A program made the position numbers and the translations under genes. Under the pieces are notes generated by a model. The model did not search any database and was not told where the DNA came from. It saw only the letters and a program-made list of their open reading frames with translations. This document shows, one piece after another, positions 17,741-52,171 of a stretch of DNA of 64,000 nucleotides. Positions within the stretch are counted from its first letter, which is position 1. Every line of letters starts with the position of its first letter. Source of the DNA: Paracoccaceae bacterium (GTDB lineage: Bacteria; Pseudomonadota; Alphaproteobacteria; Rhizobiales; Stappiaceae). The stretch covers positions 16,126 to 80,125 of the forward strand of contig JABXHV010000025.1 in assembly GCA_013373445.1 (NCBI GenBank). The letters run 5' to 3'.

Positions 17741-17748
17741 AAGCACCC

Positions 17749-19125: not shown

Positions 19126-19181
19126 GCCGTCTTTAGGGACTACAACACATTCTTGTTTCAAAACCACACGGATTCTAAAGC

Positions 19182-34176: not shown

Positions 34177-34495
34177 AGTAGCTTTTTTCTCAAATGATCA
34201 CGATCTGGCTCATCAGATCCGGAGGTTGAATTCAAATACTGTTATAGCTTCAACCTGCGCTGCGGTCCAAGGGATCTAATCAAATGGAACTGCTCGGTTG
34301 AACGACCAGACATAATGTGTTTTCAGATGGATCATGAGAACCAGTCTGATTTTTACGGCGTTCCAGGCGAGTGGTCGCAGGAAATTTGTGTTTAGTTTGT
34401 CCAATGGAAGTGATCAGTCAATGGCGTTTATCTTCGCATAAAGAAGTCATGGATGATCGTGCAACTGATTTGTGAACTGCGAGCTTAGAAATTTT

Positions 34496-36509: not shown

Positions 36510-37091
36510 ATGGTCTTTGAGGGAAAAGAGCCACGTGCAGCAGTCTTCCTCGACCGCGACGGAACTGTGAATGTCGATAAGGGGTATGTCCACAAGATCG
36601 CGGACTGGGAGTGGATTCCAGGTGCAATAGAGGCTATCGGTTTACTTAACCGAAGCGGCTATCTGGTTGTTGTCGTAACCAACCAAGCTGGTATCGCTCG
36701 GGGTTACTACAATCATGAGACAGTTGCGGCTCTACACCAGCATGTTGATAGCCTTCTGAAGGCTGAAAATTGTTGGATCAATGCTTATTACCTGTGCCCA
36801 CATCACCCTGAATATGGGTCGGTGCGCGAGTGCAATTGTAGAAAGCCGCTACCGGGAATGCTGCTGCAAGCAGCCCAGGATCTTAATATAGATATGAGCC
36901 GCTCCTGGCTGATTGGTGACAAACTTTCGGATACCGAGGCCGGCTTTGCTGCGGGTGTATCTCCAATTCTCGTTCGGACGGGATATGGAGATCAAGAGCG
37001 GGAGATGGCTGATACCGGAGTGCAATGCGAAGCCGACTTGCTTAGAGCGGTTCGGAGCATCTGCTCACTTGAGAACCCCCAAATAAAATAG
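36510..37091 (+). CDS. gmhB: D-glycero-D-manno-heptose 1,7-bisphosphate phosphatase
   Basis: FLDRDGTVN, VTNQAGIARG, CPHHP..C.CRKP Zn motif, IGDKLSD. Confidence 0.93.
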   Translation: MVFEGKEPRAAVFLDRDGTVNVDKGYVHKIADWEWIPGAIEAIGLLNRSGYLVVVVTNQAGIARGYYNHETVAALHQHVDSLLKAENCWINAYYLCPHHPEYGSVRECNCRKPLPGMLLQAAQDLNIDMSRSWLIGDKLSDTEAGFAAGVSPILVRTGYGDQEREMADTGVQCEADLLRAVRSICSLENPQIK

Positions 37092-37775
37092 TTGCTTACC
37101 AAAGGGCCATGCCTCCGGTACGTCACCCTTAGTGACCTTTATTTCTGTGAAATAGGGGTTGATGAATTTCTCAAGAAATGCATCGTCAATGGTATTCACG
37201 TGTTCGCCGATCGGCGTCTGCGACGTCAGAATTGAACCATCCAAATGTCGCTCGTTCCAAGGGCACTGGATACACACATATTTGGACGATGAGACCGCGA
37301 GACTTTCGACGAATTCTTCAACATTCTCGATGTGTTCAATAACATTTGAGCAATAAACAAAATTACACTTTGTGGTTTGGTCCCACTTTTTTACGCCAAA
37401 GTTTTCCTGTTTTTTGACCGCAATATTCAGTCCACCTGTACTAACATCCCAGAGAAAAATCTCAGATTTAGGCCAATTTTTTCTGAATATTCGAGCAGAA
37501 TCACCATGAGCGCACCCAAAGTCAAGCACACTTGGCGGGTCGAGGTCACCAATGTTGCAAAATTCGAATAAACTCTCCGAAAATCTAACCGTTTGAAGGC
37601 TTCCTTCCTTTGACCAATTGAATTTTAGTCTAAAATCCCAGTACGATTTGGAGTTTATTTGAAAAAAATTTTTGGATATTCGTCCAATGTAGATGCCCGG
37701 TGCATATTTTATTGCTTTTTTTATCGCGACATCAATTCCATCATCTTTTGCGATTTCAAAAAATCTTCTAATCAT
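37065..37775 (-). CDS. Class I SAM-dependent methyltransferase
   Basis: VLDFGCAHG motif I; CSNVIEHI; converges on gmhB with a 27-nt 3' overlap. Confidence 0.8.
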   Translation of the reverse strand: MIRRFFEIAKDDGIDVAIKKAIKYAPGIYIGRISKNFFQINSKSYWDFRLKFNWSKEGSLQTVRFSESLFEFCNIGDLDPPSVLDFGCAHGDSARIFRKNWPKSEIFLWDVSTGGLNIAVKKQENFGVKKWDQTTKCNFVYCSNVIEHIENVEEFVESLAVSSSKYVCIQCPWNERHLDGSILTSQTPIGEHVNTIDDAFLEKFINPYFTEIKVTKGDVPEAWPFGKQLFYLGVLK

Positions 37776-38131
37776 GACAGCCTTCTTCTCAAAAATTCTG
37801 GGTTATCGAAGTGTCGAATCTGCCCAACGTGACTAGGAAGTTTGAATTCAAATTGGTCTAAAAATCCCACACTTTATTCTGACTGAGACTGTCTGCGGTG
37901 TGCCGAGCAAAATCAAGAGTTTGGGATTTGTGTGGCCGTAAATTCGTACATATCAGGCTGCTCTTCAACAAAACGACGATGAAGACCTTTCCATTCGTCA
38001 GTACCTGGACTAAGAAACTCGGATAAGATCGCTTGTGTGCTGCTCCCGGTTTCGAGTTTTTCATCTTGCAGATCGTGGAGTTGCGGTGAAGGTTCTCCGC
38101 ACAAGGTTCCTTTCAACATGCAGTCGATAAG

Positions 38132-38725
38132 ATGGTCAAAATCAAAACTCCCTCAGAGCTGTTGAACCAAAATATTTCAGACTCAATTTCTGCAAAGAAA
38201 TCGTTTCTTCTGAATTCCGTGCAGATTGAGAATTTTGAAAAAGCGGTCTTACTCATTGCTGAGCGGTATCGAGATGGTGGGCGTCTCTACATTGCTGGAA
38301 ACGGTGGATCTGCAGCAGACGCGCAGCATTTGGCAGCAGAATTTGTGAGTAAATTGGCGAAGGACAGAGCGCCACTCCCAGCGGAAGCATTGACTGTGGA
38401 CACGTCAATTCTGACGGCTATAGGCAACGACTATGGCTACGATCAGGTTTTTGCTCGACAGGTCCGCGGAAAAATGACCGAGAAGGACGTTTTTCTTGGC
38501 GTGACTACATCGGGCAACTCACCGAATATCCTGTGTGCCCTTGAGGCATGCAGTGAGAGGAATATTCCTTCAGTTGTTTTTACCGGGCATGATGGAGGGG
38601 CGGTAAAAGCTCTTGCGGATCACTGTGTGGTTGCGTCGGGCGAACGTACGGCAACCATCCAGGAGATACATATTGTACTGGCGCATTCTCTTTGTGAATA
38701 CGTCGAGAATTTGCTTTTTGGTTGA
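38132..38725 (+). CDS. gmhA: Sedoheptulose-7-phosphate isomerase
   Basis: AGNGGSAADAQHLAAEF, GNDYGYDQVFARQ, TTSGNSPN, IQEIH. Confidence 0.95.
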   Translation: MVKIKTPSELLNQNISDSISAKKSFLLNSVQIENFEKAVLLIAERYRDGGRLYIAGNGGSAADAQHLAAEFVSKLAKDRAPLPAEALTVDTSILTAIGNDYGYDQVFARQVRGKMTEKDVFLGVTTSGNSPNILCALEACSERNIPSVVFTGHDGGAVKALADHCVVASGERTATIQEIHIVLAHSLCEYVENLLFG

Positions 38726-38751
38726 CCTGACACACTCTGTAACGAGGCATC

Positions 38752-39690
38752 ATGACATATAATATTCTTGTAACCGGTGGCGCTGGTTACCTTGGCTCAA
38801 TTTTGGTTCCAGATCTTTTGGCCGCAGGCCATAAAGTGACCGTGCTTGACAATTTCATGTACAAGCAGGCCAGCCTAAACCACTGTGCCTACCATTCGAA
38901 TTTCAGCGTCGTTAAGGGCGACATTCGTGTTGAAGAGACAATTGCGCCGTTGATGAAGTCCGCGGATGTCGTAATACCGTTAGCTGCATTGGTTGGAGCG
39001 CCGATCTGTAGTCAGGACCCAATCGGAGCGACGACCACAAATCACGATGCAATTGCATTAATGCTGAAGCTGCTGTCCAAACAGCAAATTGTGCTCATGC
39101 CGACGACCAATAGCGCTTATGGGACCGGCGATGAGAATAACTTCTGTACGGAAGAATCGCCTTTGCGACCGATCTCGCAGTATGCGATTGAAAAGGTCGC
39201 CATCGAAAAGGAATTGATGCAGCACGAGAATGCGATCAGTTTCCGACTTGCTACAGTATTTGGCATGTCCCCGAGAATGCGCCTAGATCTGCTGGTAAAT
39301 GACTTTACTTACCGTGCGTTCAATGATCGTTTTGTCGTCCTTTTCGAAAGTCAGTTTAAAAGGAATTATGTTCACGTGAGAGATGTCTCGCGTGTGTTCC
39401 GGCATGCACTTGATAACTTTGAAAAAATGCGCGGCGAGATTTTCAACGTTGGGCTTTCTGACGCAAATGTTTCAAAGAAGGAGCTTTGCGAGGTAATCCA
39501 GACGCAGCTACCTGACTTTACCTTTATTGATGGCGCTGTTGGCAAGGACCCGGATCAGAGAAACTACATCGTGTCGAATGAGAAAATCGAAGCGACTGGT
39601 TTTCAACCGGAGTTTAGGCTCGCTCGAGGAATTGGAGAATTGATCAAAGGCTTCCAGATGATCAAAAATAGCCGCTACGGAAACGTTTAG
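38752..39690 (+). CDS. NAD-dependent SDR closely resembling C. jejuni Cj1427 (GDP-heptose C4-dehydrogenase)
   Basis: IPLAALVGAP, TNSAYG, CTEESPLRPIS.Y, FRLATVFG.SPRMRLDLLVNDFTYRA, KRNYVHVRDV, DPDQRNYIVSN match the recalled Cj1427 sequence along its length; next to gmhA. Confidence 0.75.
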   Translation: MTYNILVTGGAGYLGSILVPDLLAAGHKVTVLDNFMYKQASLNHCAYHSNFSVVKGDIRVEETIAPLMKSADVVIPLAALVGAPICSQDPIGATTTNHDAIALMLKLLSKQQIVLMPTTNSAYGTGDENNFCTEESPLRPISQYAIEKVAIEKELMQHENAISFRLATVFGMSPRMRLDLLVNDFTYRAFNDRFVVLFESQFKRNYVHVRDVSRVFRHALDNFEKMRGEIFNVGLSDANVSKKELCEVIQTQLPDFTFIDGAVGKDPDQRNYIVSNEKIEATGFQPEFRLARGIGELIKGFQMIKNSRYGNV

Positions 39691-39715
39691 TCAGGTTGAA
39701 ATCTTTAGAAAACGC

Positions 39716-39755
39716 AAAATGGCCATCCAAGACCGTCCTGGATGGCCGCTTTAGA
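39716..39755. terminator. Bidirectional terminator between convergent units
   Basis: Stem GGCCATCCA (39721-29)/TGGATGGCC (39739-47) flanked by an A-run on the left and T-rich sequence on the right. Confidence 0.7.
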
Positions 39756-39804
39756 TTTGGCTGGTTGTGCCTATTAGTCGATTTGCGGTTAATTCAAGGA
39801 ACCA

Positions 39805-40851
39805 TTATAGATCCCAGAACTCTGCCTGATTAAAAGTGGGCTCTTCCTCAGGTTTTTCAGAGGCGATAACCTTTGAGTATAGGTTCATGAAATTCTCGGA
39901 AGTATATCTTTTTGCCTTTTCAAAAGCAGATTGGACTATGTTCTGGATTTGATCGGTGTCCCAATTTTCCAAGATGAAATCGATTTTGCGATTAAGGTCA
40001 TCTTCATCGGTGAAGTAGATGAACTCTTTTTCCGGCTCGTAATAATGCTCAATTAGGTTCCATGAATCGCGATAGACTAGATTGACAGATCGAGCGATCG
40101 CAGCCTCGTGGACTCTTGTTTTAAATTGCGGCAAAACGCCTACCCAAGGATAGTTCGAGATTATATCACGATATCGCAACCCATCAAAAAAATCTCCGCT
40201 TTCGGGAAGTTTCTGACGGTAATGTCTCATGTTAGTCAAATGCTTTGTTGAAACATGGATGAGATTAAAACAAATAGATATCTTTGTTTCTGCAATACGT
40301 TCAATTTTTTCTTTGAAAGGAAGATTGATATCTGTCGCGTGCTTCAGATATTTACTCGTTAATTTGTTGATCCCATAATCCAAACTTGAATAACGATAAT
40401 TTCTCTTCATTATCGTCTTCATCGCCATAATATGTTCTTTTCCGTGAATGCCGCCATGGTAGATTGCATCATATTTTTTTTCGAGTTTCGCTGGAATAAT
40501 ATCAGTCGAATACGGATAGAAGGCGTATATAAAGCGCTTTCTTGTAGAATTACTATTTCTCCAGTGAGCGGAATATGGGCAAATAGTCAGTATATAATTA
40601 AACTTATTCTCTGCGTTTAAAGCATCTAGACCCTTGGCTATTTCTCCTTGAGCGTATTCACAAGGCGCCCAATTGTTGAAAAGAGCGATTTTTGTATGCT
40701 CACTTGTACGAAATTCGTCAAAATTGTCTTGCAAGAGAGAGTTGAAACCTACGGCAAGTTTATTCCCATCGTCGATTCCGAACGGCTCAAAGTTCCAATG
40801 GAAACTATTAGTATCAAGAATTTCAACGCTTAAGTCTTTTATTGATTGCAT
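39805..40851 (-). CDS. Putative glycosyltransferase (CgeB/Glyco_trans_1_2-like C-terminus)
   Basis: C-terminal KTRVHEAA..HYYEPEKEFIYFTDEDDLNRKI pattern. Confidence 0.6.
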   Translation of the reverse strand: MQSIKDLSVEILDTNSFHWNFEPFGIDDGNKLAVGFNSLLQDNFDEFRTSEHTKIALFNNWAPCEYAQGEIAKGLDALNAENKFNYILTICPYSAHWRNSNSTRKRFIYAFYPYSTDIIPAKLEKKYDAIYHGGIHGKEHIMAMKTIMKRNYRYSSLDYGINKLTSKYLKHATDINLPFKEKIERIAETKISICFNLIHVSTKHLTNMRHYRQKLPESGDFFDGLRYRDIISNYPWVGVLPQFKTRVHEAAIARSVNLVYRDSWNLIEHYYEPEKEFIYFTDEDDLNRKIDFILENWDTDQIQNIVQSAFEKAKRYTSENFMNLYSKVIASEKPEEEPTFNQAEFWDL

Positions 40852-41635
40852 TTTTAACCTGAGGCAATGAGTTAAGATATAAGAAGAGCCTCTGTACGTT
40901 TTTATTCGACGGTCCTTTTGTCCTATCTGTCGAAATCGCGAACTCCTCGAATATCTCCTCTAATTTTATCTTATATTCGCTCATGTTCCATTTTCCATCA
41001 ACAATCGCGCTTATTAGGTGGGGCATGATGCTACATTCGTAGTGGAAATAACCTTCCTTTGGTTCGTCGTTATAGTAGACGAGGCCCTCTAATCCCAGCC
41101 TGGCACATGTTCGATTTGCTAAGACTTCAAATTGCTCTTCGTTCCCTTTGCGAGCGATACCTGACTTAGGGGTATTCTCGTAAACCTGAATGAGATCATC
41201 TCTTTTCCATAGGCTTAGTGTTTGGCTGAAAAAAAATGGTTTAGAATTATCAAGTTTAAATAGCCTATCGAAGCCGGAAAAAGCAGAAAAATTGGGGCCT
41301 CTAACAAATCGGATTTGACTAAAATTACTCATCTTAAGAACTTCAATACAACGATCGATTTCCGAATAGGCCGGTGTATCGGTCACGAAGTAATCATCGT
41401 TAAATGTGAGAATGTATTGGAAAGGTATATTTTTAAGTGAATATAGCCCCTGTTCACTAAATGTCTTTCCAGAATATTCGACAAGGATTTCATTATCCGT
41501 TAGTTCGATACCATCCTTAGTATTGGTACATACATATAATGGAATATTATCGGTTTTTTGTCTGAAGCATTTTAAGAAAATCTTCAATGCATCATGATAT
41601 GATTCATGCGAATTGACAACTGCACAGTATTCCAC
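40823..41635 (-). CDS. Putative GT-A-type glycosyltransferase, unclassified
   Basis: YILTFNDDYF DxD-like motif; SQTLSLWKR..L segment; glycan-cluster context. Confidence 0.5.
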   Translation of the reverse strand: MEYCAVVNSHESYHDALKIFLKCFRQKTDNIPLYVCTNTKDGIELTDNEILVEYSGKTFSEQGLYSLKNIPFQYILTFNDDYFVTDTPAYSEIDRCIEVLKMSNFSQIRFVRGPNFSAFSGFDRLFKLDNSKPFFFSQTLSLWKRDDLIQVYENTPKSGIARKGNEEQFEVLANRTCARLGLEGLVYYNDEPKEGYFHYECSIMPHLISAIVDGKWNMSEYKIKLEEIFEEFAISTDRTKGPSNKNVQRLFLYLNSLPQVKNAINKRLKR

Positions 41636-41637
41636 TT

Positions 41638-42462
41638 TTATTTCCCTACGAAGATTGAATGAGCGGCCTTTAAAAGCCTTCTTTGTACTTTCAATATTAC
41701 TAGTAAATATCTGCTCAATAATGTTTTAAACTGAGAGCTGTCCTTTTTGACAAGTCTTAGTAAGTCCGGCGTTGGCCACTTTTCTAAGAAGAAGGGGCGA
41801 TCACGAGGGTCGTAGAAATCAAAATATTTCAAAAGATGTTGAATGAGTTCTTTCGTTCGTTCTTTGCCAAGCGCTGTGTAGTGTATCTCTAATACTGCGA
41901 AGTCAATATTTGATAAATCCTCATTGATTAAGCCTGCATATTCAGCACCCTCGACATCAACCTTCAGGAAATTGATATTACTCTTCACATTCATTTCTTT
42001 TAAAAAATCTGAAAAGGAGATTGTACTAACGATTTCTTCGATTCCTTCAAAAGAACCGGGGAAGCTCGAGCGATTTAACTCTTTTTTGTCCCAATCTGTG
42101 GTGGTGAAATTGCCGCTTTCACAGGAACCGTTTATTGACACTTTTTGAAGCGCAATTTTTTCATTTGATATTGAGTGCAGAGCTGCATGCATGATCTGAA
42201 TGTTGTCGTAACCCGCTAAGTTCTCTCGAGCATCGGTGCAATTAGCTTTCGAGGCTTCGAGGCAATATATCTGATCAAAATTGCTAGAAAAAACGAGTGG
42301 AAATGAGCCAACATTCATTCCCAAATCTACTGCTATTGATTGATGGTCATGCTTAATATTAGTCAGTATTTTTCCAATTGGATCCGTAAACAACGGGATC
42401 GAATACGCTTTTTTTGCCTCATCGATCCGTTCAGCAAGGAACTTTTTTTTCTCAGTATGCAT
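41638..42462 (-). CDS. FkbM family methyltransferase
   Basis: VDLGMNVGSF, LEAS..N, INFLKVDVEGAEY, LEIH. Confidence 0.85.
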   Translation of the reverse strand: MHTEKKKFLAERIDEAKKAYSIPLFTDPIGKILTNIKHDHQSIAVDLGMNVGSFPLVFSSNFDQIYCLEASKANCTDARENLAGYDNIQIMHAALHSISNEKIALQKVSINGSCESGNFTTTDWDKKELNRSSFPGSFEGIEEIVSTISFSDFLKEMNVKSNINFLKVDVEGAEYAGLINEDLSNIDFAVLEIHYTALGKERTKELIQHLLKYFDFYDPRDRPFFLEKWPTPDLLRLVKKDSSQFKTLLSRYLLVILKVQRRLLKAAHSIFVGK

Positions 42463-42512
42463 TTTACGTAATCTCTGTTTTTGATGTCGTTTAATATTAG
42501 TGACGAAGAAGA

Positions 42513-43772
42513 TTAAAGAGAAAAAGACATTATCTTTTGGACCTGATTAGTTACGCTTAGTGTGGAAAATTCGGAAGTTTGATTCATAATGTTTTGCCGC
42601 TCCCTGTGGCCACAAATTGCCGAGCTTAAAGCATCTTTGATCGCTTGTTCATCGCCACAGTCCGCAATAAAGTCTTCATATTGAGGAAATAGCTCTTTAA
42701 TCTCTGGATTTTTTACGAGCATGATGATTGGAAGCTTCAGATTCGCGTAGTCGTATAACTTGTAGGGGATCGTTTCCGCACTGCGGTTGTCATCGTGCTG
42801 AACAAGCAGCAGAAAATCGGCGTTTTGAGCAACCTGTAACGCTTCTAGGCGACTTTTTTCTTTAAGCAGCCTAAAATCATCTCTGCGCGCGTATTCGTCA
42901 GCATTGTCTGTGTACACCGAACCTTGGTTGGTGATGAGGATAGTACCCCTTTCCACTTCGCCATCTGCATAAAGTTTATCCAGAGATCGGAAGAACTTAT
43001 CTAAATTCCTAGAACCGTAGAGAGTGCCAAGATGCAGAATTTCTAGTGGTTTTTTTTTCGAATTGAGGCTTTTGTCTCGTTGAAGGTCAAAATCCCAAGC
43101 TGCTGGGTAGTTGTGGATGATACGATCTCCGAACTCTGGATATCTCTTTCGAGAATCTTCAGCTGCCTTTCTCGTCACATAAACAACAAGATCAGAGTTT
43201 TTAATCAGGAATCTCTCGATTGTACGAACCATCCGTTGTTTGTAGTTCGAGTTGTTTGTTTCTGCACCAACCAGTGGGTCCTGAAATTCAATTTTTAAGG
43301 GAACACGTTTGACCCATTTGACCGCGACACCGATTAGATAAGCGCTCGGTGGCCCGCCAGTGCAATAGATTACTTCGATTCGTTTTGTTAAGCTGAGCCA
43401 CAGACCCGTTGGAATCCCACAAATCACCCATGACCACATGCCGCCTGAACCACCTCGGGTCAGAAAGTGTGTTAGTGCCTGCAACAATGTGCCAAATACC
43501 CTGACGATGACCTTCAAGATCCAGCTGCTCGGGCCGTTGACAACTTCGAACTGCTTTCTAAGCGCCAGTTCATGTTTGAAATCATCTGACGACAACGATG
43601 GGATTTTGTAGATCTGGGTATTCGTTGTGTCTTTTAGATGGGAGCCGTAATTCGTAAGAACAGTTGTCTCAAAATCGAGTGCTGCCAATGTTCGCAGGCG
43701 ATCATCCGCCCACTCTGCAGGACAATTAGCATCTACTCCAGCAAAGTAGCTTATAAACAGGATGTCTTTCAT
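42513..43772 (-). CDS. GT4-like glycosyltransferase
   Basis: GT-B pattern: YCTGGPPS, EFQDP, HLGTLYG.RN, IPYKLYDY. Confidence 0.7.
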   Translation of the reverse strand: MKDILFISYFAGVDANCPAEWADDRLRTLAALDFETTVLTNYGSHLKDTTNTQIYKIPSLSSDDFKHELALRKQFEVVNGPSSWILKVIVRVFGTLLQALTHFLTRGGSGGMWSWVICGIPTGLWLSLTKRIEVIYCTGGPPSAYLIGVAVKWVKRVPLKIEFQDPLVGAETNNSNYKQRMVRTIERFLIKNSDLVVYVTRKAAEDSRKRYPEFGDRIIHNYPAAWDFDLQRDKSLNSKKKPLEILHLGTLYGSRNLDKFFRSLDKLYADGEVERGTILITNQGSVYTDNADEYARRDDFRLLKEKSRLEALQVAQNADFLLLVQHDDNRSAETIPYKLYDYANLKLPIIMLVKNPEIKELFPQYEDFIADCGDEQAIKDALSSAICGHRERQNIMNQTSEFSTLSVTNQVQKIMSFSL

Positions 43773-43804
43773 TTCACGCTTCCCTTGGCGCCGACCAGAC
43801 GGTC

Positions 43805-44746
43805 CTAAATGCTGCGCTCATCAACACCAAGGTATGCTTTTTCAGCAATAAACCAGTCAATTGTTTCTTTGAGGCCCTCACGCAACGGTATGAGGCTGGA
43901 CTTGTAATCTAGGATCTCGTTTTCGATTTCACTAATCTCGAGCATCTTGGCTTTTGCGCCAACGTATCGAGTAGTGTCATATTCAATATGGGTTTCATCA
44001 AAGTTGATTTCCTCACAGATAATTTTGACGAAATCGCGAATTGAATAGTCTTCACCTGCACCAATGTTGAGAAGCTTGTTGTCGACGTTCTCCGTCAGGT
44101 TTAACAGGATGTCTACAAAACTTCTGACATGGACCAGTTCCCGCCTTTGGTGACCGTCGCCCCAAAGAACGACACGATCTCCCAGCAATTTTCCGCGCAG
44201 AATTTTTCGGACTAAGTCAAAAATGAAATGCATCTGCCGACCGTCCAGATGATACCTTGGTCCGTAAAGTGTTGACGGAACTGCACAGAGCCAAGTCTGT
44301 CCAAACTGTTTCTCGATTGATCGCGCCCCCTGGAAGAGCATGCGCTTGGTCATTGCGTAGGTGTAGAGACTATCTATCGGCTCCCCTGACATGTAATTCC
44401 GTTCACGAAGTTCCATGTCAATTGGATAAGCGCAGCTGGTGCCCATGAAAATCAGTTTTGCCTGGGGTTGGTGGGCTTGCCACCAAGTCAGGACATTAGT
44501 GTTGATTTTCTGATTATTGATCCACTGTTCCCCTGGATGAAGCAGGCAAAAATCACCTGCCTGTGTCCAAGCCGCCAAGTGAAAGATGCGATCAAACTTC
44601 GTATGCGCAAATTTCTCAAGGGCGTCTGGATCAAAGAGGTTGCAGTCTCGAGACCGAGGATAGGTAACGCTACACCCATTCTCGAGCAGCTTTGACACCA
44701 GTTCCTGGCCAAGGAAACCGCCACCACCTGTTACAAAAACATCCAT
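43805..44746 (-). CDS. Fcl/WcaG-like GDP-4-keto-sugar reductase (GDP-fucose synthase family)
   Basis: GGGGFLG, FHLAA, GTSCAYP, YAMTK, PSTLYGP, WGDGHQRREL. Confidence 0.8.
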   Translation of the reverse strand: MDVFVTGGGGFLGQELVSKLLENGCSVTYPRSRDCNLFDPDALEKFAHTKFDRIFHLAAWTQAGDFCLLHPGEQWINNQKINTNVLTWWQAHQPQAKLIFMGTSCAYPIDMELRERNYMSGEPIDSLYTYAMTKRMLFQGARSIEKQFGQTWLCAVPSTLYGPRYHLDGRQMHFIFDLVRKILRGKLLGDRVVLWGDGHQRRELVHVRSFVDILLNLTENVDNKLLNIGAGEDYSIRDFVKIICEEINFDETHIEYDTTRYVGAKAKMLEISEIENEILDYKSSLIPLREGLKETIDWFIAEKAYLGVDERSI

Positions 44747-44749
44747 CTT

Positions 44750-45946
44750 TTATCTCGGTTCAATCGGAAAATAGAATTCGACACCCTGTTCAATCAGGTG
44801 CTGATTGTTTCTCAGAATCTCGGTTTTAAAATTCCACGCCAAGCCATAATAGACATCCGGCAGAACCTCGAGCTCCTTTTCGATAAGAATTGGAATGTGC
44901 ATTCCCGGCGAATAAAGACCGCGACGCAGTTCATTCTTTTCAATCAAAAATTCGATGGTCTCCGGTCCGATACCGAAATAGTTCAGAAGAGTGTTGCCTT
45001 TCACCGGCGCCCCCATTCCAAAGATCCGCTTCCCAGCTTCCCTGCATTTCGTCAGATACGCCACATCTCGCTCCTTTATCTGAGCAACCCGATTTGCAAA
45101 TTCGAAATAGGAATACTTATCGTTACATTTCGAGGCAGCTTCAGCTTTCTCAAGGTCGACAAGCCTGGTCGATTTGTCGCGTTTTCCAGGATGCCCAACG
45201 AAGCCAATCATTTGACCGCCGTGGATTGGAGACAAAAACGCGTCAAACATCTCCAAGCCGTGAATTTTCAAGAGCTTCTGGATTGTCTCAAGAGAATAAT
45301 AAAGCAGGTGTTCGTGATAGATCTGGTCGAAGGCGTTATTCTCCATAATGTTCTTCATGTAGAGGAATTGAACAACAAAAACACCTGTGTCTTCGAGACC
45401 TACACGAATGGCATCAGTTACGGAGTGGAGTTCTTCGAGGTGGAAAAACACGCCTGCAGCGTTAATCACCGAGAACTGTTTATTTATGTCGTTTATGCAT
45501 TCCAAATTAAAGAAACGATTTAGTGTTGGAACATCACTATCATTTGCAATTGCTGCGGTGGTCTTTGACGATTCTACGCCAAGAACATCCCAACCAAGGG
45601 TTTGATAATGTTTCAACTGTGTCCCGTCATTTGACCCAATATCGAGGATGCTCTTCTTTGTGAAACCATCACCGAAGCGGTTGTCGACATCTTCTGCGAT
45701 ACCTTTGAAATGATCTGACAGTGATTTGGTAATGCCGGACAGGTAGGTGTGGTCACCGAACATGATTTGCTTATCGACCGTGTAATCCAGCTGGGAAGTG
45801 CGACAGCTATTGCAATACATCAAATTCAGTGGGTAGAGCGGCTCTGTGCCGACCTGCGCTTCCGTAAGGAAGTTATTGCACCAGGGCTGATCTCCTAAAT
45901 CAAGCACTGGTTCCAAATCGGTTCCGTCGCAAACTCGGCATTTCAT
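44750..45946 (-). CDS. NDP-sugar C-methyltransferase (Zn-binding N-domain, SAM domain, C-methyltransferase C-domain)
   Basis: CRVC and CNSC Zn ligands, LDIGSNDG, FDQIYHEHLLYY, GMGAPVKGNTLLNY, AWNFKTEI; architecture of TcaB9/KijD1/NovU-type sugar 3-C-methyltransferases. Confidence 0.85.
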   Translation of the reverse strand: MKCRVCDGTDLEPVLDLGDQPWCNNFLTEAQVGTEPLYPLNLMYCNSCRTSQLDYTVDKQIMFGDHTYLSGITKSLSDHFKGIAEDVDNRFGDGFTKKSILDIGSNDGTQLKHYQTLGWDVLGVESSKTTAAIANDSDVPTLNRFFNLECINDINKQFSVINAAGVFFHLEELHSVTDAIRVGLEDTGVFVVQFLYMKNIMENNAFDQIYHEHLLYYSLETIQKLLKIHGLEMFDAFLSPIHGGQMIGFVGHPGKRDKSTRLVDLEKAEAASKCNDKYSYFEFANRVAQIKERDVAYLTKCREAGKRIFGMGAPVKGNTLLNYFGIGPETIEFLIEKNELRRGLYSPGMHIPILIEKELEVLPDVYYGLAWNFKTEILRNNQHLIEQGVEFYFPIEPR

Positions 45947-45964
45947 TTCATTGTCCTCGGTAGA

Positions 45965-46705
45965 TTAATTATTTTCGAAATGCAGCTTGATGAAGTCTCC
46001 GCTTTCGCCAAGGCTAGCTTCCGTGCCAATATCGATAAATGGGCTGATTTCTGGGATAATTTTAATTTTCATACCCTTTTCAAGCAATGAAGGAATTATG
46101 TCTTGCTCCATTGATAGCGGCCGGGTTTTACTGTCCGACTGCATGAGGCTTTCTGGCCTAAATAGGTAAACCCCAGAATTTATGACGCCAGCTCCCGGCG
46201 TTTTTTCTTGAAAGGCGGTAAGTGTGTATTGTTTGTTGAAGGTTAAGGTTCCGTAGCGGCTGGCATCTTGCATCTCTACGCCAAAAATTGCGCCCGAATA
46301 ATCCGCTCCCATGCACTCGACCGCTACCGCTAGATCATAATCTACCAACATGGAATCGCCGTTCAATATTAAAAAAGGCGATGAGATATTCGGGTGCTGA
46401 ACGAGGAAGTCGAGCACACTTCCGCCTGTTCCGGCAGGTGAACTCTCCCGAATACAGGCAATCTCGAAATCACTTGATCGCTCGCTTCGAGCGTAGGCTT
46501 CGATTTGCTCAGCTTCATAGTGGGTCAACAAATAGACTTCGCGAATTTGTTGCGCCTTGAGGCTTTTGAAAATCCAATGAAGAAAAGGCTTTCCATTTAC
46601 CTGTGCGAGCGGTTTGGGAACAGTTCCGGTCAGGTGCCTTATTCTAGTTCCGAATCCACCCGCTAGCACGACTGCCGACAGACCTTGAGGAGATGCATTG
46701 GGCAT
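45965..46705 (-). CDS. hddC: D-glycero-alpha-D-manno-heptose 1-phosphate guanylyltransferase (HddC-like)
   Basis: LAGGFGTRI..PKPLAQVNGKPFL, GTGG, LNGDS, INSGVY, FIDIGT; close to hddA. Confidence 0.8.
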   Translation of the reverse strand: MPNASPQGLSAVVLAGGFGTRIRHLTGTVPKPLAQVNGKPFLHWIFKSLKAQQIREVYLLTHYEAEQIEAYARSERSSDFEIACIRESSPAGTGGSVLDFLVQHPNISSPFLILNGDSMLVDYDLAVAVECMGADYSGAIFGVEMQDASRYGTLTFNKQYTLTAFQEKTPGAGVINSGVYLFRPESLMQSDSKTRPLSMEQDIIPSLLEKGMKIKIIPEISPFIDIGTEASLGESGDFIKLHFENN

Positions 46706-46853
46706 TCATTTTACCACGGATAGATACTCGAGGATCATCTTTGGCAACTATCTAGTTCATTTCTGTAGATGATCGCAACAGTGAGATCGAAAGGTTTTGC
46801 TTCGTTCTGCTCCCTACTGACATCTTTTGGATTATGAAAAGTACTCTTTCAAG

Positions 46854-47762
46854 TTACGGATAAAGCTCATACTCGGTAAGTAGGTGTTCCAGATCGAGGT
46901 TCAGGAACACATAATCTCCGGGTCGTGAGCTCACGAGCTTGAAGTTGAATGTTTTCAAATAGTCAACAATCGCAGATGCTGAATCATGATAGCCATCCGC
47001 TCCAAGCACAATGTGATCGGGTTGCGCTTTTGGATCGGCATATTGTGAGTTCTCATAGATGCCTTTGAAACACTCTACACGGCAAAACAAAACCTTCTTA
47101 ATTTCTAGACCTGCCCCTTTGAGAACTTCCAGGTCATGTCCTTCCGTGTCGATCTTCAGAGATTCAACAAAAGAGAACCCGGCTTTGTCGATCTCCGGAA
47201 ACAGAAGTGACAATGGGAATTCCAATACGTTAAACTCCTGATCAACGATGTTCCCGGTCGATTTAGGCGTTTGAATTTTGTAAAGTGAGCTGTTTCCCTT
47301 ATCGGGATAGGCAGAATAGAAAGTCCTTTCTATCGGTGCATCGGAGGAGCCGGCCGCACCTTGAATGATGACAAATCTTTTCTCTAGGTCCGGAATATTT
47401 TTAACATTATTCCCTTTTCGAATGATCTTGTCCCGAGTGGACATCGAATGAAACTTGGGCACTCCAAACCTTAGGCCTCTCAAATTGCCAGGGTGCGGTT
47501 CGATCCCAATAATCATCCGATTATCGGCATCGAACAAACAGTCAACCGAATGGGATGCGTCATCGCTCAAGCCAATATCTATTCGAAGAAATTGGGCTGT
47601 TTCAGATCGGGTTAATGAGAAATCGATTGGTGACAGGAATTTTCCTTCCTGCGTTAAAGATGGACCAGATCTCTGATATAAAAATGCTATTGCTTTACTG
47701 AACCCTCTACAAACGAAGCTCAATAGTACCATGCGAATTTTTGACATCGATTTCCCGCTCAT
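46854..47762 (-). CDS. Divergent FkbM-like methyltransferase
   Basis: RIDIGLS..IIGIEP, LKIDTEGHDLEVLKGA motifs. Confidence 0.7.
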   Translation of the reverse strand: MSGKSMSKIRMVLLSFVCRGFSKAIAFLYQRSGPSLTQEGKFLSPIDFSLTRSETAQFLRIDIGLSDDASHSVDCLFDADNRMIIGIEPHPGNLRGLRFGVPKFHSMSTRDKIIRKGNNVKNIPDLEKRFVIIQGAAGSSDAPIERTFYSAYPDKGNSSLYKIQTPKSTGNIVDQEFNVLEFPLSLLFPEIDKAGFSFVESLKIDTEGHDLEVLKGAGLEIKKVLFCRVECFKGIYENSQYADPKAQPDHIVLGADGYHDSASAIVDYLKTFNFKLVSSRPGDYVFLNLDLEHLLTEYELYP

Positions 47763-47852
47763 GCCAGTTTTTGGCAGTTTATGTGCTTCAAGGTGAAGCG
47801 AATTTAGACTTGTAAAAGTATATTCAAATCGGAACCATGCGCATGGCTCAGA

Positions 47853-48839
47853 CTAGGAACCGGCATGAATAACAGAGCTTCCTTGTGCGTTTAATGTAAC
47901 GGCTACTTCATGCATATTTGAGAATGCACTCCTAAAGCGGTGTTGTTCCCGTTTGGGAACATAGAAGAGTAGAAAGCCACCACCGCCAGCACCGAGTAGC
48001 TTGCCTCCCAATGCCCCGCTCTGCATCCCAAGTTTATAAGCGTCATCGATATGCGGGTTTGTAACATCCCCGCTTAGCGAACGTTTCAATTGCCAGCTCT
48101 CATCGAGGAGATGCCCGATATCATCTATTGAATCACCCGATGAAAGTACTTTACGTGCCTCATCTACGCATGCATACATCCTATCGAGTGAACTGAGGTT
48201 CTTGTCCATGCGTTTGAGCTTCTCTTCCTCTATGTCCGAAGCCCGACGTGTCATTCCGGTGTAAAGCAGGATCAGGTTGTCAGAGAGCTCTTGGGTCTGC
48301 CCCTCATTAACGTTGATGCGTTCTACATCAAAACTTTCATTGCCATAGAATTTTATATGATTGAACCCGCCGTAACTTGCGAATAGTTGGTCTTGAAACC
48401 CTACCGATTCTTCCAAAACGTTTCGTTCGAGATGGATTGCGGTTTGCGCCAACTCTTTCATACCTATGAGCTGACCTTTGAAAGCATTTAACCCTTTGAT
48501 CAGGCCAACCGTGAACGAGGATGAGGAGCCAAGCCCGGTAAATGATGGCAAGTCCGATGCGAGGTTTACCTCAATATTTTCGTGGATGCCGTGATACTTG
48601 AGGATCTCTTTGAACGGGCGATGCTTGATGTGCTCAACATCAGGTACCTGTTCCACAATCCTATAAGCAAAGCGAATTTTGTGCTCAAACAGCCAAGAGG
48701 GGAAATGGGAGAGCGTATGGTAAATGTATTTGTCGATCGCCGATCCGATGACACCTCCACCGTTCGCTTTAAAGTATTCGGGAAAGTCCGTTCCACCACC
48801 AAACAGGCTAATACGGAGGGGGGTGCGCACAATTATCAT
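47853..48839 (-). CDS. hddA: D-glycero-alpha-D-manno-heptose 7-phosphate kinase (GHMP family)
   Basis: RTPLRISLFGGGTD, DLPSFTGLGSSSS, G.QDQ, GGKLLGAGGGGF. Confidence 0.88.
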   Translation of the reverse strand: MIIVRTPLRISLFGGGTDFPEYFKANGGGVIGSAIDKYIYHTLSHFPSWLFEHKIRFAYRIVEQVPDVEHIKHRPFKEILKYHGIHENIEVNLASDLPSFTGLGSSSSFTVGLIKGLNAFKGQLIGMKELAQTAIHLERNVLEESVGFQDQLFASYGGFNHIKFYGNESFDVERINVNEGQTQELSDNLILLYTGMTRRASDIEEEKLKRMDKNLSSLDRMYACVDEARKVLSSGDSIDDIGHLLDESWQLKRSLSGDVTNPHIDDAYKLGMQSGALGGKLLGAGGGGFLLFYVPKREQHRFRSAFSNMHEVAVTLNAQGSSVIHAGS

Positions 48840-51449: not shown

Positions 51450-51464
51450 GAAATCTGAGTTCTG

Positions 51465-52130: not shown

Positions 52131-52171
52131 TGGTTGAAAATTCTCTCATTACTACAGGATGGCTACTTAGG

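What the first reader, a model, noticed from the sequence alone, without database searches (positions are those of the whole stretch)
36510..48839. Candidate pathway to a branched 3-C-methyl-heptose (GDP-heptose + C4-dehydrogenase + C-methyltransferase + C4-reductase)
Seen: all four GDP-D-glycero-alpha-D-manno-heptose genes (gmhA 38132, hddA 47853, gmhB 36510, hddC 45965) are present. hddC is followed after 18 nt by an NDP-sugar C-methyltransferase (44750..45946), and after 3 nt by an Fcl-like reductase and a GT4. gmhA is followed by an SDR matching Cj1427. Established: in Campylobacter, Cj1427 oxidises C4 of GDP-heptose, an RmlC-like epimerase (Cj1430) acts, and Cj1428 reduces C4. TcaB9/KijD1-type enzymes methylate C3 of 4-keto NDP-sugars. 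No RmlC-like epimerase is visible in the window. Inference: the C-methyltransferase takes the middle slot, giving GDP-4-keto-heptose -> 3-C-methyl-4-keto-heptose -> a 3-C-methyl-branched heptose. I know C-methyl branching for 6-deoxyhexoses (e.g. virenose) but not for a heptose.
Basis: partly seen in the sequence, partly recalled or inferred. Interest (0 to 1): 0.85.

Follow-up and report, generated by a model that had tools for sequence, protein, structure and literature searches.

The report
Predicted C-methyl-branched heptose sugar pathway
A marine bacterium's surface-polysaccharide gene cluster carries a gene cassette, conserved across many bacterial phyla, that most likely turns GDP-heptose into a methyl-branched seven-carbon sugar that I could not find described anywhere.

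Summary
All the named genes are intact at the stated coordinates. They are gmhB, gmhA, a Cj1427-like C4-dehydrogenase (51% identical to PDB 6vo6), hddA, hddC, a TylC3/TcaB9-type sugar C-methyltransferase (C-MT) and a GDP-fucose-synthase-like reductase (FclL). The window has no RmlC-like epimerase and no Gmd.

- I found 56 distinct loci from several phyla with a C-MT at least 54% identical.
- FclL follows directly in 40 of the 44 loci with enough downstream sequence.
- Of 18 loci with at least 4 kb on both sides, 15 carry hddA, 13 hddC and 12 a Cj1427 orthologue. Only one carries a true RmlB.
- Minimal operons read hddA–Cj1427L–hddC–C-MT–FclL.
- Natural fusions join a C-MT to a GFS-like domain, and a C-MT to a Cj1427-family domain.

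One refinement: every FclL orthologue keeps the Cys/His epimerisation pair of GDP-fucose synthase. FclL is therefore probably a C5-epimerase as well as a C4-reductase, which would explain the missing RmlC.

The methylation site (C3 or C5), the stereochemistry and the activity itself remain untested. The literature I searched does not link heptose with C-methylation. I rate it a new variant of a known kind, with fairly high interest.

The parts
36510..37091 (+). gmhB: heptose 1,7-bisphosphate 7-phosphatase (HAD-IIIA)
   Evidence: NCBIfam NF006506 scores 196 bits, above its cut-off of 178. Pfam finds HAD domains. Orthologues lie in cassette loci L001, L013, L012, L065 and L098.
38132..38725 (+). 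gmhA: sedoheptulose-7-phosphate isomerase (SIS domain)
   Evidence: Pfam SIS_2 matches at 2.5e-21. The best NCBIfam families are all phosphoheptose isomerases, but below their cut-offs. Present in 7 of 18 well-flanked cassette loci.
38752..39690 (+). [quoted passage not shown]
   Evidence: PDB 6vo6 matches at E 1.3e-109 and 51% identity over 310 aa with no gaps. Orthologues 52-72% identical lie beside the C-MT in 12 of 18 well-flanked loci, and directly upstream of it in L010, L011, L030 and L051.
39805..40851 (-). Glycosyltransferase, last gene of the minus-strand operon
   Evidence: Pfam Glyco_trans_1_2. Conserved at 58-70% identity and in the same order in the closest relatives L021, L024, L025 and L028.
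40823..41635 (-). Conserved hypothetical protein with no family match
   Evidence: No Pfam or NCBIfam hit. Conserved at 48-54% identity and in the same order in L021, L022, L024, L025 and L028.
41638..42462 (-). FkbM-family methyltransferase (probable O-methylation of a glycan sugar)
   Evidence: Pfam Methyltransf_21 and TIGR01444. It is not found at this position in the syntenic relatives.
42513..43772 (-). GT4-like glycosyltransferase directly downstream of FclL; candidate transferase for the modified heptose
   Evidence: The Pfam Glyco_trans_4_4 match is weak and below its cut-off. Conserved at 49-58% identity directly after FclL in L021, L022, L024, L025 and L028.
43805..44746 (-). FclL: GDP-fucose-synthase-like SDR; predicted C4-reductase, probably also an epimerase, for the methylated GDP-4-keto-heptose
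   Evidence: The best PDB hits are GDP-L-fucose synthases (E 8e-28). All 49 orthologues conserve the equivalents of GFS T/S107, C109, Y136, K140, H179 and W202. It lies directly downstream of the C-MT in 40 of 44 loci.
44750..45946 (-). C-MT: TylC3/TcaB9/KijD1-family NDP-sugar C-methyltransferase; predicted to methylate a carbon next to the 4-keto group of the GDP-4-keto-heptose
   Evidence: Pfam PF08421 and PF08484. PDB 4rv9 matches at E 6.5e-68 and TcaB9 at E 7e-50. The four zinc cysteines (C3, C6, C45, C48) and the equivalents of TcaB9 H181, Y222, E224 and H225 (H169, Y210, E212, H213) are invariant in 56 orthologues.
45965..46705 (-). hddC-like sugar-1-phosphate nucleotidyltransferase (predicted heptose-1-P guanylyltransferase)
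   Evidence: Pfam NTP_transferase. The best PDB hit is the Y. pseudotuberculosis HddC entry 5xhw/6jq8 (E 2e-27). NCBIfam HddC is below its cut-off. Present in 13 of 18 well-flanked loci. gmhB-hddC fusion genes occur in L015 and L078.
46854..47762 (-). FkbM-family methyltransferase between hddA and hddC (possible O-methylation)
   Evidence: Pfam Methyltransf_21. Conserved at 49-73% identity within the hddA-to-C-MT block in L023, L024, L025, L027 and L028; in L028 it lies after hddC instead.
47853..48839 (-). hddA-like GHMP kinase (predicted D-glycero-D-manno-heptose-7-phosphate 1-kinase)
   Evidence: Pfam GHMP_kinases_N and _C. The best PDB hits are heptose-7-P kinases 4n3o, 3k85 and 4usk (E 1e-39 to 2e-35). 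Present in 15 of 18 well-flanked loci.

Best explanation
**What it is.** The region is one module of a large surface-polysaccharide cluster (about 25-63 kb of the window). The host is a marine alphaproteobacterium related to Roseibium/Labrenzia.

**Proposed pathway**
1. [quoted passage not shown] This is inferred from homology.
2. [quoted passage not shown] This is inferred from 51% identity to an enzyme whose reaction is established.
3. The C-methyltransferase removes the proton on a carbon next to the 4-keto group and transfers a methyl group from SAM to it. C3 is most likely, as in TylC3, TcaB9 and KijD1. The result is a quaternary, methyl-branched 4-keto-heptose. This is inferred.
4. FclL has the SDR Thr/Tyr/Lys triad and also the Cys/His acid-base pair of GDP-fucose synthase. 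It epimerises the remaining exchangeable centre (C5 if the methyl is on C3) and reduces C4 with NAD(P)H. The product is a GDP-C-methyl-heptose of unknown configuration. This is inferred.
5. The adjacent conserved glycosyltransferases then place the sugar in the glycan. FkbM-type enzymes may add O-methyl groups.

**Shown versus not shown.** What is shown here is gene content, catalytic-residue conservation and cross-phylum gene linkage. No enzymatic step is shown.
For: **Homology of each enzyme.**

**Catalytic residues are intact**
- The C-MT keeps its zinc cysteines and the His/Tyr/Glu/His set in 56 of 56 orthologues.
- FclL keeps the T/S-Y-K triad, the Cys109/His179 pair and the guanine-stacking Trp in 49 of 49 orthologues. 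The meaning of these residues comes from PMC7949155.

**Gene linkage**
- There are 56 distinct loci with a C-MT at least 54% identical.
- FclL lies within 100 nt downstream in 40 of 44 loci.
- Of 18 loci with at least 4 kb on both sides, hddA is present in 15, hddC in 13 and a Cj1427 orthologue in 12. gmhA is present in 7, a true RmlB in 1 and a Gmd-like gene in 2.

**Minimal and complete operons**
- hddA-Cj1427L-hddC-C-MT-FclL occurs in Ramlibacter sp. G-1-2-2 (L020), Ca. Solibacter (L002) and Korobacteraceae (L013).
- All seven genes lie in one direction in Calothrix rhizosoleniae (L098).
- L025 is syntenic with the window from 39.8 to 54.3 kb. L028 carries the Cj1427 orthologue inside the operon.

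**Fusions.** P0143 joins a C-MT (48% identical) to a GFS-like domain. P0220 and P0229 join a C-MT to a Cj1427-family SDR.

**A second lineage.** A distant C-MT lineage lies in Cj1427-paralogue/RmlC-like/reductase/hddA/gmhA/gmhB-hddC operons.
Against: - No biochemical or glycan-structure data exist for any carrier of the cassette.
- Every characterised member of this C-methyltransferase family uses a dTDP-linked 6-deoxy sugar. GDP-linked and heptose substrates have no precedent.
- In the window, the Cj1427 orthologue and gmhA/gmhB lie 5 kb from the C-MT and on the opposite strand. A true rmlB-rmlA pair sits next to gmhB.
- HddA, HddC and GmhA score below the curated equivalog cut-offs. The GmhB match is to the beta-anomer model.
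- Three well-flanked loci (L007, L034, L062) show the C-MT and FclL with no heptose gene within 4.5-10 kb on either side.
- The methylation site (C3 or C5) and the stereochemistry cannot be read from the sequence.
Confidence: 0.65

Rival explanations
1. The cassette makes a C-methyl heptose, but the methyl group goes on C5 (a NovU-type reaction) rather than C3. FclL would then epimerise C3 and reduce C4.
For: C3 and C5 both lie next to the 4-keto group. From my own knowledge, the same enzyme family includes 5-C-methyltransferases such as NovU, CloU and CouU. The conserved Cys/His pair of FclL fits either option.
Against: The closest solved relatives (4rv9, TcaB9, KijD1) are all 3-C-methyltransferases, and their catalytic residues are conserved here. 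C5 of a heptose carries the bulky C6-C7 diol side chain. I compared no 5-C-methyltransferase sequence.
Confidence: 0.1
2. The C-MT and FclL act on GDP-4-keto-6-deoxy-D-mannose made by a Gmd encoded elsewhere. The product would be a virenose/evalose-type 6-deoxy-3-C-methyl-hexose. The heptose genes would serve a separate sugar in the same glycan.
For: This is exactly the route proposed in silico for Coxiella virenose: Gmd, then the C-MT CBU_0691, then the GDP-fucose-synthetase-like CBU_0688 (PMC3539893). FclL resembles true GFS more than it resembles Cj1428. A Gmd-like gene lies within 10 kb in L032, L014, L031 and L006. P0269 is a C-MT fused to a Gmd-like domain.
Against: The window has no Gmd. 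Gmd-like genes accompany only 4 of the 56 loci, whereas hddA accompanies 15 of 18 and the Cj1427 orthologue 12 of 18. In the minimal operons the 4-keto-heptose made by the Cj1427 orthologue would have no reductase if FclL served another pathway. P0269 is only 34% identical to the window C-MT, so it belongs to another subfamily.
Confidence: 0.08
3. The C-MT methylates a dTDP-4-keto-6-deoxyhexose, or another NDP-linked one. The donor would be RmlA/RmlB (34472-36420) or the RmlB-like dehydratase at 53275-54264. This is the alternative the reader named as refuting the hypothesis.
For: rmlB and rmlA are in the window and adjacent to gmhB. Every characterised family member uses dTDP sugars. Other subfamilies are fused to RmlB (P0196) or RmlD (P0207, P0212). 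L025 conserves the 53275-type dehydratase in the same operon.
Against: A true RmlB lies near only 1 of the 18 well-flanked orthologous C-MTs, and RmlA near none. The RmlB- and RmlD-fused C-MTs are only 32-34% identical, so they are different subfamilies. The 53275 dehydratase overlaps its own DegT aminotransferase by 4 nt, which points to a 4-amino-sugar branch. FclL keeps the guanine-stacking Trp of GFS.
Confidence: 0.07
4. The Cj1427 orthologue oxidises GDP-mannose, and the cassette makes GDP-3-C-methyl-mannose. That non-deoxy branched hexose is known from some Helicobacter pylori O-chains. The product would then not be a heptose.
For: 3-C-methyl-D-mannose exists in nature (PMC4205683), and I found no published route to it. 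The hddC-like enzyme scores about as well against a mannose-1-P guanylyltransferase model as against HddC.
Against: hddA-type kinases, gmhA and gmhB travel with the cassette. gmhB-hddC fusions occur in the sister lineage. No manB or manC is conserved in the cassette.
Confidence: 0.04

Closest known systems
Campylobacter jejuni capsular heptose modification pathway (Cj1427 C4-dehydrogenase, Cj1430/MlghB/DdahB RmlC-like epimerases, Cj1428/MlghC/DdahC C4-reductases)
   Same: [quoted passage not shown] It opens with the same kind of C4 oxidation, by an orthologue 51% identical to Cj1427. It ends with C4 reduction by a GFS-related SDR.
   Different: - A SAM-dependent C-methyltransferase is inserted into the pathway.
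- There is no RmlC-like cupin epimerase.
- The reductase keeps the GFS Cys/His epimerisation pair. MlghC has Tyr/Arg at those positions and DdahC has Thr/His.
- None of the C. jejuni products described in PMC10680097 is C-methylated.
TylC3, EryBIII, TcaB9, KijD1 and MtmC: NDP-hexose 3-C-methyltransferases of antibiotic deoxysugar pathways
   Same: The three-domain architecture is the same: a Cys4 zinc domain, a SAM-binding domain and the Methyltransf_14 C-terminal domain. The catalytic His/Tyr/Glu/His residues are the same, and the enzyme needs a 4-keto sugar nucleotide.
   Different: The known enzymes act on dTDP-linked 2,6-dideoxy or 3-amino-6-deoxy hexoses in actinomycete natural-product clusters. 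This orthologous group is separated from its next relatives by a clear gap in identity (over 54% within the group, 48% or less outside). It lies in GDP-heptose operons of Gram-negative and cyanobacterial surface-glycan clusters.
Proposed GDP route to virenose (6-deoxy-3-C-methyl-gulose) in Coxiella burnetii: Gmd, then C-MT CBU_0691, then GDP-fucose-synthetase-like CBU_0688
   Same: The logic is the same: a GDP-4-keto sugar, then a C-methyltransferase, then a GFS-like epimerase/reductase (PMC3539893).
   Different: In Coxiella the 4-keto group comes from Gmd, which removes the C6 hydroxyl of a hexose. Here it comes from a Cj1427-type dehydrogenase acting on a heptose, with no deoxygenation. The Coxiella route is itself only predicted in silico.
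[quoted passage not shown]
   Same: FclL has the SDR fold family, the Ser/Thr-Tyr-Lys triad, the Cys109/His179 pair and the guanine-contacting Trp, all conserved.
   Different: It is only about 27% identical to E. coli Fcl and scores far below the NCBIfam equivalog cut-off (140 against 500). Asn165 is replaced by Thr in all orthologues. The predicted substrate is a C-methylated 4-keto-heptose. If the methyl is on C3, that substrate cannot be epimerised at C3.

Membership tests
TylC3/TcaB9/KijD1-type NDP-sugar C-methyltransferase | N-terminal four-cysteine zinc-binding domain (Pfam PF08421) | tested here: met
   PF08421 matches at 3.4e-21 and 75.6 bits, above its cut-off of 31.3. C3, C6, C45 and C48 are invariant in 56 orthologues.
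TylC3/TcaB9/KijD1-type NDP-sugar C-methyltransferase | Class I SAM-binding domain followed by the C-methyltransferase C-terminal domain (PF08484) | tested here: met
   PF08484 matches at 6.1e-42 and PF13489 at 2e-10. Full-length alignments to 4rv9 (E 6.5e-68) and TcaB9 (E 7e-50).
TylC3/TcaB9/KijD1-type NDP-sugar C-methyltransferase | Active-site His181, Tyr222, Glu224 and His225 (TcaB9 numbering; the residue roles are from my own knowledge of the Holden laboratory's papers) | tested here: met
   They align with H169, Y210, E212 and H213 of the window protein. These are invariant in 56 orthologues.
TylC3/TcaB9/KijD1-type NDP-sugar C-methyltransferase | Methylates C3 of a dTDP-4-keto-6-deoxyhexose | not testable with these tools
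   Gene context argues for a GDP-4-keto-heptose instead. The methylation site is unknown.
Cj1427-type GDP-heptose C4-dehydrogenase | Full-length similarity to Cj1427, with the GxxGxxG and YxxxK motifs | tested here: met
   6vo6 matches at E 1.3e-109 and 51% identity with no gaps over 310 aa. The TGGAGYLGS and YaieK motifs are aligned.
Cj1427-type GDP-heptose C4-dehydrogenase | [quoted passage not shown] | tested here: met
   It lies 26 nt downstream of gmhA in the window. It lies between hddA and hddC in L002, L013, L020 and L028.
Cj1427-type GDP-heptose C4-dehydrogenase | Tightly bound NADH recycled by 2-oxoglutarate; oxidises C4 without dehydration | not testable with these tools
   This needs an enzyme assay. 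PMC10680097 uses alpha-ketoglutarate with Cj1427.
[quoted passage not shown] | All four enzymes present and meeting curated family thresholds | tested here: inconclusive
   All four are present as best hits. GmhB passes NF006506, although that is the beta-anomer model. GmhA (176 against 276), HddA (158 against 600) and HddC (111 against 300) are below their cut-offs. The best PDB hits are heptose enzymes.
GDP-L-fucose synthase (GFS/Fcl) | SDR Ser/Thr-Tyr-Lys triad plus the Cys109/His179 epimerisation pair | tested here: met
   T, C, Y, K and H occupy the aligned positions in the window protein and in 49 of 49 orthologues. The residue roles are from PMC7949155.
GDP-L-fucose synthase (GFS/Fcl) | Equivalog-level sequence similarity and partnership with Gmd | tested here: not met
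   NF047922 scores 139.6 bits against a cut-off of 500. The window has no Gmd, and Gmd-like genes lie near only 4 of the 56 loci. FclL works like a GFS but is not a GFS orthologue.
Cj1428/MlghC/DdahC heptose C4-reductases | GFS-like fold with the Cys/His pair replaced (Tyr/Arg or Thr/His) and no epimerase activity | tested here: not met
   FclL keeps Cys and His. Similarity to 7m13, 7cxt and 7anc is weak and partial (E about 4e-14, residues 191-300 only).

The most novel reading that the evidence does not exclude
C-methyl-branched heptoses may be a widespread, so far unrecognised class of bacterial surface sugar. At least two independently recruited C-methyltransferase lineages would make them inside GDP-heptose pathways.
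- One lineage is paired with a GFS-like epimerase/reductase. This is the window's type. I found it in Alpha-, Beta- and Gammaproteobacteria, Acidobacteriota, Planctomycetota, Synergistota, Chlamydiota and Cyanobacteria.
- The other lineage is paired with a Cj1427 paralogue, an RmlC-like epimerase and a separate reductase.
Probability: 0.55. Interest if true: 0.8.

Novelty: new variant of a known kind. Interest (0 to 1): 0.72.

Why it matters
- **A new kind of sugar.** Heptoses and C-branched sugars are each established determinants of bacterial surface antigenicity and of antibiotic sugar chemistry. As far as I know and could find in the literature, the two have never been seen combined. A GDP-C-methyl-heptose would add a new monosaccharide type, an eight-carbon sugar with a quaternary centre, to the bacterial repertoire.
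- **A wider substrate range for a known enzyme family.** It would extend the TylC3/TcaB9 C-methyltransferase family from dTDP-6-deoxyhexoses to GDP-heptoses.
- **A different solution to epimerisation.** It would show a GFS-like enzyme doing the epimerase and reductase work that Campylobacter splits between two proteins.
- **It is directly testable.** The cassette is conserved across many phyla and occurs in named, sequenced strains such as Ramlibacter sp. G-1-2-2 and Calothrix rhizosoleniae. The assay system for Cj1427-type pathways is already published, so a test needs only three or four recombinant enzymes.
- **Practical use.** The enzymes would be useful tools for chemoenzymatic synthesis of branched heptoses.

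Tried and rejected
- **The window's own contig.** The exact-sequence look-up found nothing. Nostoc protein P0115 could not be located either.
- **Papers not held.** The two Cj1427 papers (PMC7500870, PMC7509852) are not in the library. I therefore could not check how well Cj1427 accepts GDP-mannose. The statement that 6vo6 is Cj1427 rests on my own knowledge; a search for '6VO6' returned only irrelevant papers.
- **A wasted search.** One literature search was set too loosely and returned only generic methyltransferase papers.
- **Hidden epimerase, rejected.** I looked for an RmlC-like or cupin epimerase hidden in the window or in the orthologous cassettes. tblastn with E. coli RfbC finds none in the window. 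No cupin-sized ORF family recurs in cassette loci. The one exception is the partial locus L081.
- **RmlA/B or the 53275 dehydratase as substrate source, considered unlikely.** They do not travel with the orthologous C-MT.
- **Cj1428-type plain reductase, rejected.** FclL keeps the Cys/His pair.
- **Unknown 390-aa family.** I tried to name the recurrent family found in cassette loci. It has no Pfam or NCBIfam match.
- **Structure prediction, not run.** Sequence homology to solved structures is already unambiguous. The available outputs could not separate GDP from dTDP binding, or C3 from C5 methylation.

Full report
**1. The observation**

Family searches give the following assignments.
- **36510-37091.** A GmhB phosphatase that passes the NCBIfam NF006506 equivalog cut-off (196 bits against 178).
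- **38132-38725.** A SIS-domain protein whose best families are all phosphoheptose isomerases, though below their cut-offs.
- **38752-39690.** An SDR that matches PDB 6vo6 at E 1.3e-109 over its full length, 51% identical with no gaps. I know 6vo6 to be Cj1427; the entry's own title is only 'putative sugar-nucleotide epimerase/dehydratase'.
- **47853-48839.** A GHMP kinase whose best solved relatives are heptose-7-phosphate kinases (4n3o, 3k85, 4usk).
- **45965-46705.** A short, single-domain nucleotidyltransferase whose best solved relative is the Yersinia pseudotuberculosis HddC entry (5xhw/6jq8).
- **44750-45946.** A protein with the full three-domain architecture of the sugar C-methyltransferases. 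Its PDB matches are the mycarose 3-C-methyltransferase 4rv9 (E 6.5e-68) and TcaB9 (E 7e-50).
- **43805-44746.** An SDR whose best relatives are GDP-L-fucose synthases.

HddA, HddC and GmhA are best-hit assignments that fall below NCBI's equivalog cut-offs.

tblastn with E. coli RfbC finds nothing in the window at E<1. Pfam scans of 60 window ORFs found no cupin epimerase. There is also no Gmd orthologue.

**2. Setting**

Positions 1 to about 24,600 hold housekeeping genes, including fructose-bisphosphate aldolase, EF-P, an inositol monophosphatase and an OmpA-family protein.

From about 25,300 to the end of the window lies a large polysaccharide cluster. It holds:
- several glycosyltransferases;
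- two DegT aminotransferases;
- a UDP-GlcNAc 2-epimerase;
- true rmlB and rmlA;
- an RmlD-like gene;
- an ABC exporter;
- a PseB/FlaA1-like dehydratase.

GC content drops from 52-55% in the housekeeping part to 38-49% in the cluster.

The GAPDH at 12489-13499 falls in a 90%-identity cluster with Roseibium/Labrenzia (Stappiaceae) proteins. The only sequencing run holding the region is a seawater metagenome. The host is therefore a marine alphaproteobacterium near that family.

The genes of interest form two units.
- **The minus-strand operon.** One long operon running from 55758 down to 39805. Its order is: FAD oxidoreductase, RmlB-like dehydratase, DegT, methyltransferase, HAD, RfaE-domain-II-like nucleotidyltransferase, TIGR04372 glycosyltransferase, hddA, FkbM, hddC, C-MT, FclL, GT4, FkbM, hypothetical, GT.
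- **The plus-strand unit.** A convergent unit made of rmlB, rmlA, gmhB, then (after a gap) gmhA and Cj1427L.

**3. The decisive evidence is comparative**

The C-methyltransferase has many close relatives. All of the best 120 database hits are 66-83% identical. In a library clustered at 50% identity the close relatives collapse to essentially one cluster. The next relatives are 48% identical or less, so this is a discrete orthologous group.

I fetched loci around relatives from reference genomes and metagenomes, and scored them with the window's proteins.
- There are 56 distinct loci with a C-MT at least 54% identical.
- FclL (45-69% identical) starts within 100 nt downstream in 40 of the 44 loci that have enough downstream sequence.
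- Eighteen loci have at least 4 kb on both sides. Their gene content is shown in the table.

| Gene | Loci with the gene (of 18) |
|---|---|
| hddA | 15 |
| hddC | 13 |
| Cj1427 orthologue (at least 45% identical) | 12 |
| gmhA | 7 |
| gmhB | 2 |
| true RmlB | 1 |
| RmlA | 0 |
| Gmd-like | 2 (4 of all 56 loci) |

The carriers include Steroidobacteraceae, Burkholderiales, Ramlibacter, Ca. Parabeggiatoa, Ca. Solibacter, Korobacteraceae, Synergistaceae, Planctomycetota, Chlamydiota and the cyanobacterium Calothrix rhizosoleniae.

Several operons are minimal: hddA-Cj1427L-hddC-C-MT-FclL in L002, L013 and L020. In these, the 4-keto-heptose made by the Cj1427 orthologue has no candidate reductase other than FclL, and the C-MT sits between the genes that supply the substrate and the reductase. 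In L010, L011, L030 and L051 the Cj1427 orthologue lies directly upstream of the C-MT.

Calothrix has all seven genes in one direction. The closest relatives of the window (L024, L025, L028; 73-79% identical) share its order hddA-FkbM-hddC-C-MT-FclL-GT4-hyp-GT. L028 also carries the Cj1427 orthologue inside the operon.

**4. Fusions**

Among family representatives, several longer proteins are natural fusions.
- P0143, the closest fused relative at 48% identity, is a C-MT joined to a GFS-like domain (E. coli Fcl E 2e-50).
- P0220 and P0229 are a C-MT joined to a Cj1427-family SDR.
- Other, more distant subfamilies (32-34% identical) are fused to RmlB (P0196), RmlD (P0207, P0212) or a Gmd-like domain (P0269).

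The family thus consists of subfamilies, each physically tied to its own 4-keto-sugar supplier or consumer. The window's subfamily is tied to GFS-like and Cj1427-like partners, not to Rml enzymes.

**5. A second lineage**

C-MTs only 27-35% identical to the window's (L015, L071, L072, L076, L078, L082, L089 and others) are followed directly by an RmlC-like epimerase. They sit in operons with:
- a Cj1427-family paralogue;
- a further SDR, presumably the reductase;
- hddA and gmhA;
- in L015 and L078, a gmhB-hddC fusion gene.

This is the Campylobacter layout (dehydrogenase, RmlC-like epimerase, reductase) with a C-methyltransferase added. It shows that the link between C-methyltransferases and GDP-heptose genes arose more than once.

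**6. Catalytic competence, and a refinement**

The C-MT orthologues keep the four zinc cysteines without exception. They also keep the residues that align with TcaB9 His181, Tyr222, Glu224 and His225.

I aligned FclL and 49 orthologues with E. coli Fcl. All conserve the Ser/Thr-Tyr-Lys triad, Cys109, His179 and the Trp that contacts guanine in GFS.

According to PMC7949155, Cys109/His179 is the acid-base pair for C3/C5 epimerisation in GFS. The Campylobacter heptose reductases MlghC (Tyr/Arg) and DdahC (Thr/His) lack it and do not epimerise.

FclL is therefore not a Cj1428-type plain reductase. It is likely to epimerise whichever alpha-carbon still carries a proton (C5 if the methyl is on C3) before reducing C4. 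That would account for the absence of an RmlC-like gene in this lineage, in contrast to the second lineage. This is an inference from residue conservation, not a demonstration.

**7. Most likely mechanism**

[quoted passage not shown] The steps then are:
1. [quoted passage not shown] This reaction is established for Cj1427 (PMC10680097).
2. The C-MT with SAM makes GDP-C-methyl-4-keto-heptose. C3 is most likely, by analogy with every solved relative.
3. FclL epimerises and then reduces C4, giving a GDP-C-methyl-heptose.
4. The conserved downstream glycosyltransferases transfer the sugar, possibly with O-methylation by the FkbM enzymes.

I put about 0.65 on a C-methyl heptose as the product, and about 0.5 on 3-C-methyl specifically.

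**8. Rivals**

- **5-C-methylation** is a variant I cannot exclude (0.10).
- **A virenose-like route** from GDP-4-keto-6-deoxymannose matches the Coxiella in-silico scheme (PMC3539893). It is disfavoured because Gmd is absent from the window and rare near the cassette (0.08).
It is disfavoured because RmlA/B do not travel with this orthologous group, and the 53275 dehydratase is translationally coupled to its own aminotransferase (0.07).
- **A GDP-mannose-derived 3-C-methyl-mannose** is disfavoured by the accompanying hddA, gmhA and gmhB genes (0.04).

**9. Comparison with what is known, and novelty**

Each enzyme belongs to a known family, and the logic (make a 4-keto sugar nucleotide, modify next to the keto group, reduce) is standard. 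Three things are new.
- **The combination.** A Cj1427-type oxidation of a heptose feeds a TylC3/TcaB9-type C-methyltransferase and a GFS-like epimerase/reductase.
- **The predicted product.** It would be a C-methyl-branched heptose.
- **The breadth.** The cassette occurs in many phyla.

Full-text searches found no paper that links heptose with C-methyl branching, or the Cj1427 product with a methyltransferase. They also found no biosynthetic route for the non-deoxy branched sugar 3-C-methyl-mannose. The library lacks most subscription journals, so absence there is not proof.

I rate it a new variant of a known kind, with interest 0.72. The enzymology is directly testable with published methods.

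Noticed in passing
L015 798-4796; L071 294-4971; L072 3129-10108; L076 318-7289; L078 97-6449; L082 1132-10103; L089: A second, distant C-methyltransferase lineage (27-35% identical to the window's) lies in GDP-heptose-type operons. In most of these loci it is followed directly by an RmlC-like epimerase; L076 has no RmlC-like hit. A Cj1427-family paralogue lies upstream of the C-MT in most. A further SDR follows the epimerase (the C-MT in L076) in L071, L072 and L076.
   Followed up: partly
L015 2581-3807 and L078 4691-5875: Single ORFs of 408 and 394 aa combine a GmhB-like phosphatase with an HddC-like nucleotidyltransferase. These natural fusions tie this nucleotidyltransferase type to heptose metabolism.
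   Followed up: no
Proteins P0143, P0220, P0229, P0196, P0207, P0212, P0269 and P0174: The C-methyltransferase family contains many natural fusions. Partners are a GFS-like SDR, a Cj1427-family SDR, RmlB, RmlD and a Gmd-like domain. P0174 also carries an extra N-terminal region of about 175 aa that looks cupin-like by eye. The partners could be used to predict the substrate class of each subfamily.
   Followed up: partly
window 58435-59379 (-): The window holds a second Cj1427-family SDR. It matches 6vo6 at E 1.7e-37 and is about 30% identical to the first one. It resembles the SDRs that precede the distant-lineage C-methyltransferases, and homologues (41% identical) occur in L009 and L011. 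Its role in this cluster is unknown.
   Followed up: partly
window 50122-54264 (-): A second sugar-nucleotide module lies in the same operon. It holds an RmlB-like 4,6-dehydratase, a DegT aminotransferase that overlaps it by 4 nt, a class I methyltransferase, a beta-phosphoglucomutase-family HAD hydrolase and a short RfaE-domain-II-like nucleotidyltransferase. It is conserved in L025 and partly in L009. It probably makes a methylated 4-amino-4,6-dideoxy sugar carried on an unusual nucleotide.
   Followed up: no
L020 14190-15362 (-); L098 13485-14657; L009 555-1673; L042 12089-13240; L054; L061-L064 and others: A recurrent protein family of about 390 aa has no Pfam or NCBIfam match. It accompanies the cassette in 16 loci but has no homologue in the window. 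Its C-terminal sequence looks like that of GT-B glycosyltransferases. It may be a dedicated transferase for the modified heptose.
   Followed up: partly
L020 (Ramlibacter sp. G-1-2-2) 1494-2660 and 15355-19157: In Ramlibacter the cassette lies between two type IV pilin genes and two GT9 heptosyltransferase-family genes plus a Wzy_C (O-antigen-ligase-like) gene. The sugar may therefore go onto pilin or the LPS core there.
   Followed up: no
window 1-64000 (composition): GC content is 50-55% across the housekeeping part (1-28 kb) and 38-49% across the polysaccharide cluster, with a minimum of 37.8% at 40-42 kb. This fits horizontal acquisition of the cluster.
   Followed up: no
window 37065-37775 (-): A class I methyltransferase gene lies on the opposite strand between gmhB and gmhA. 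Its 3' end overlaps the 3' end of gmhB by 27 nt. It interrupts the plus-strand unit rmlB-rmlA-gmhB ... gmhA-Cj1427L.
   Followed up: no
L081 2-840: This is an exception to the rule. A partial C-MT, 64% identical to the window's, is followed by an RmlC-like gene rather than by FclL.
   Followed up: no
L009 (record title 'MAG: Chlamydia trachomatis isolate MaH-04nov19-293'): The contig carries a large environmental-type polysaccharide cluster with the heptose/C-MT cassette. The species label of this metagenome-assembled genome looks doubtful.
   Followed up: no
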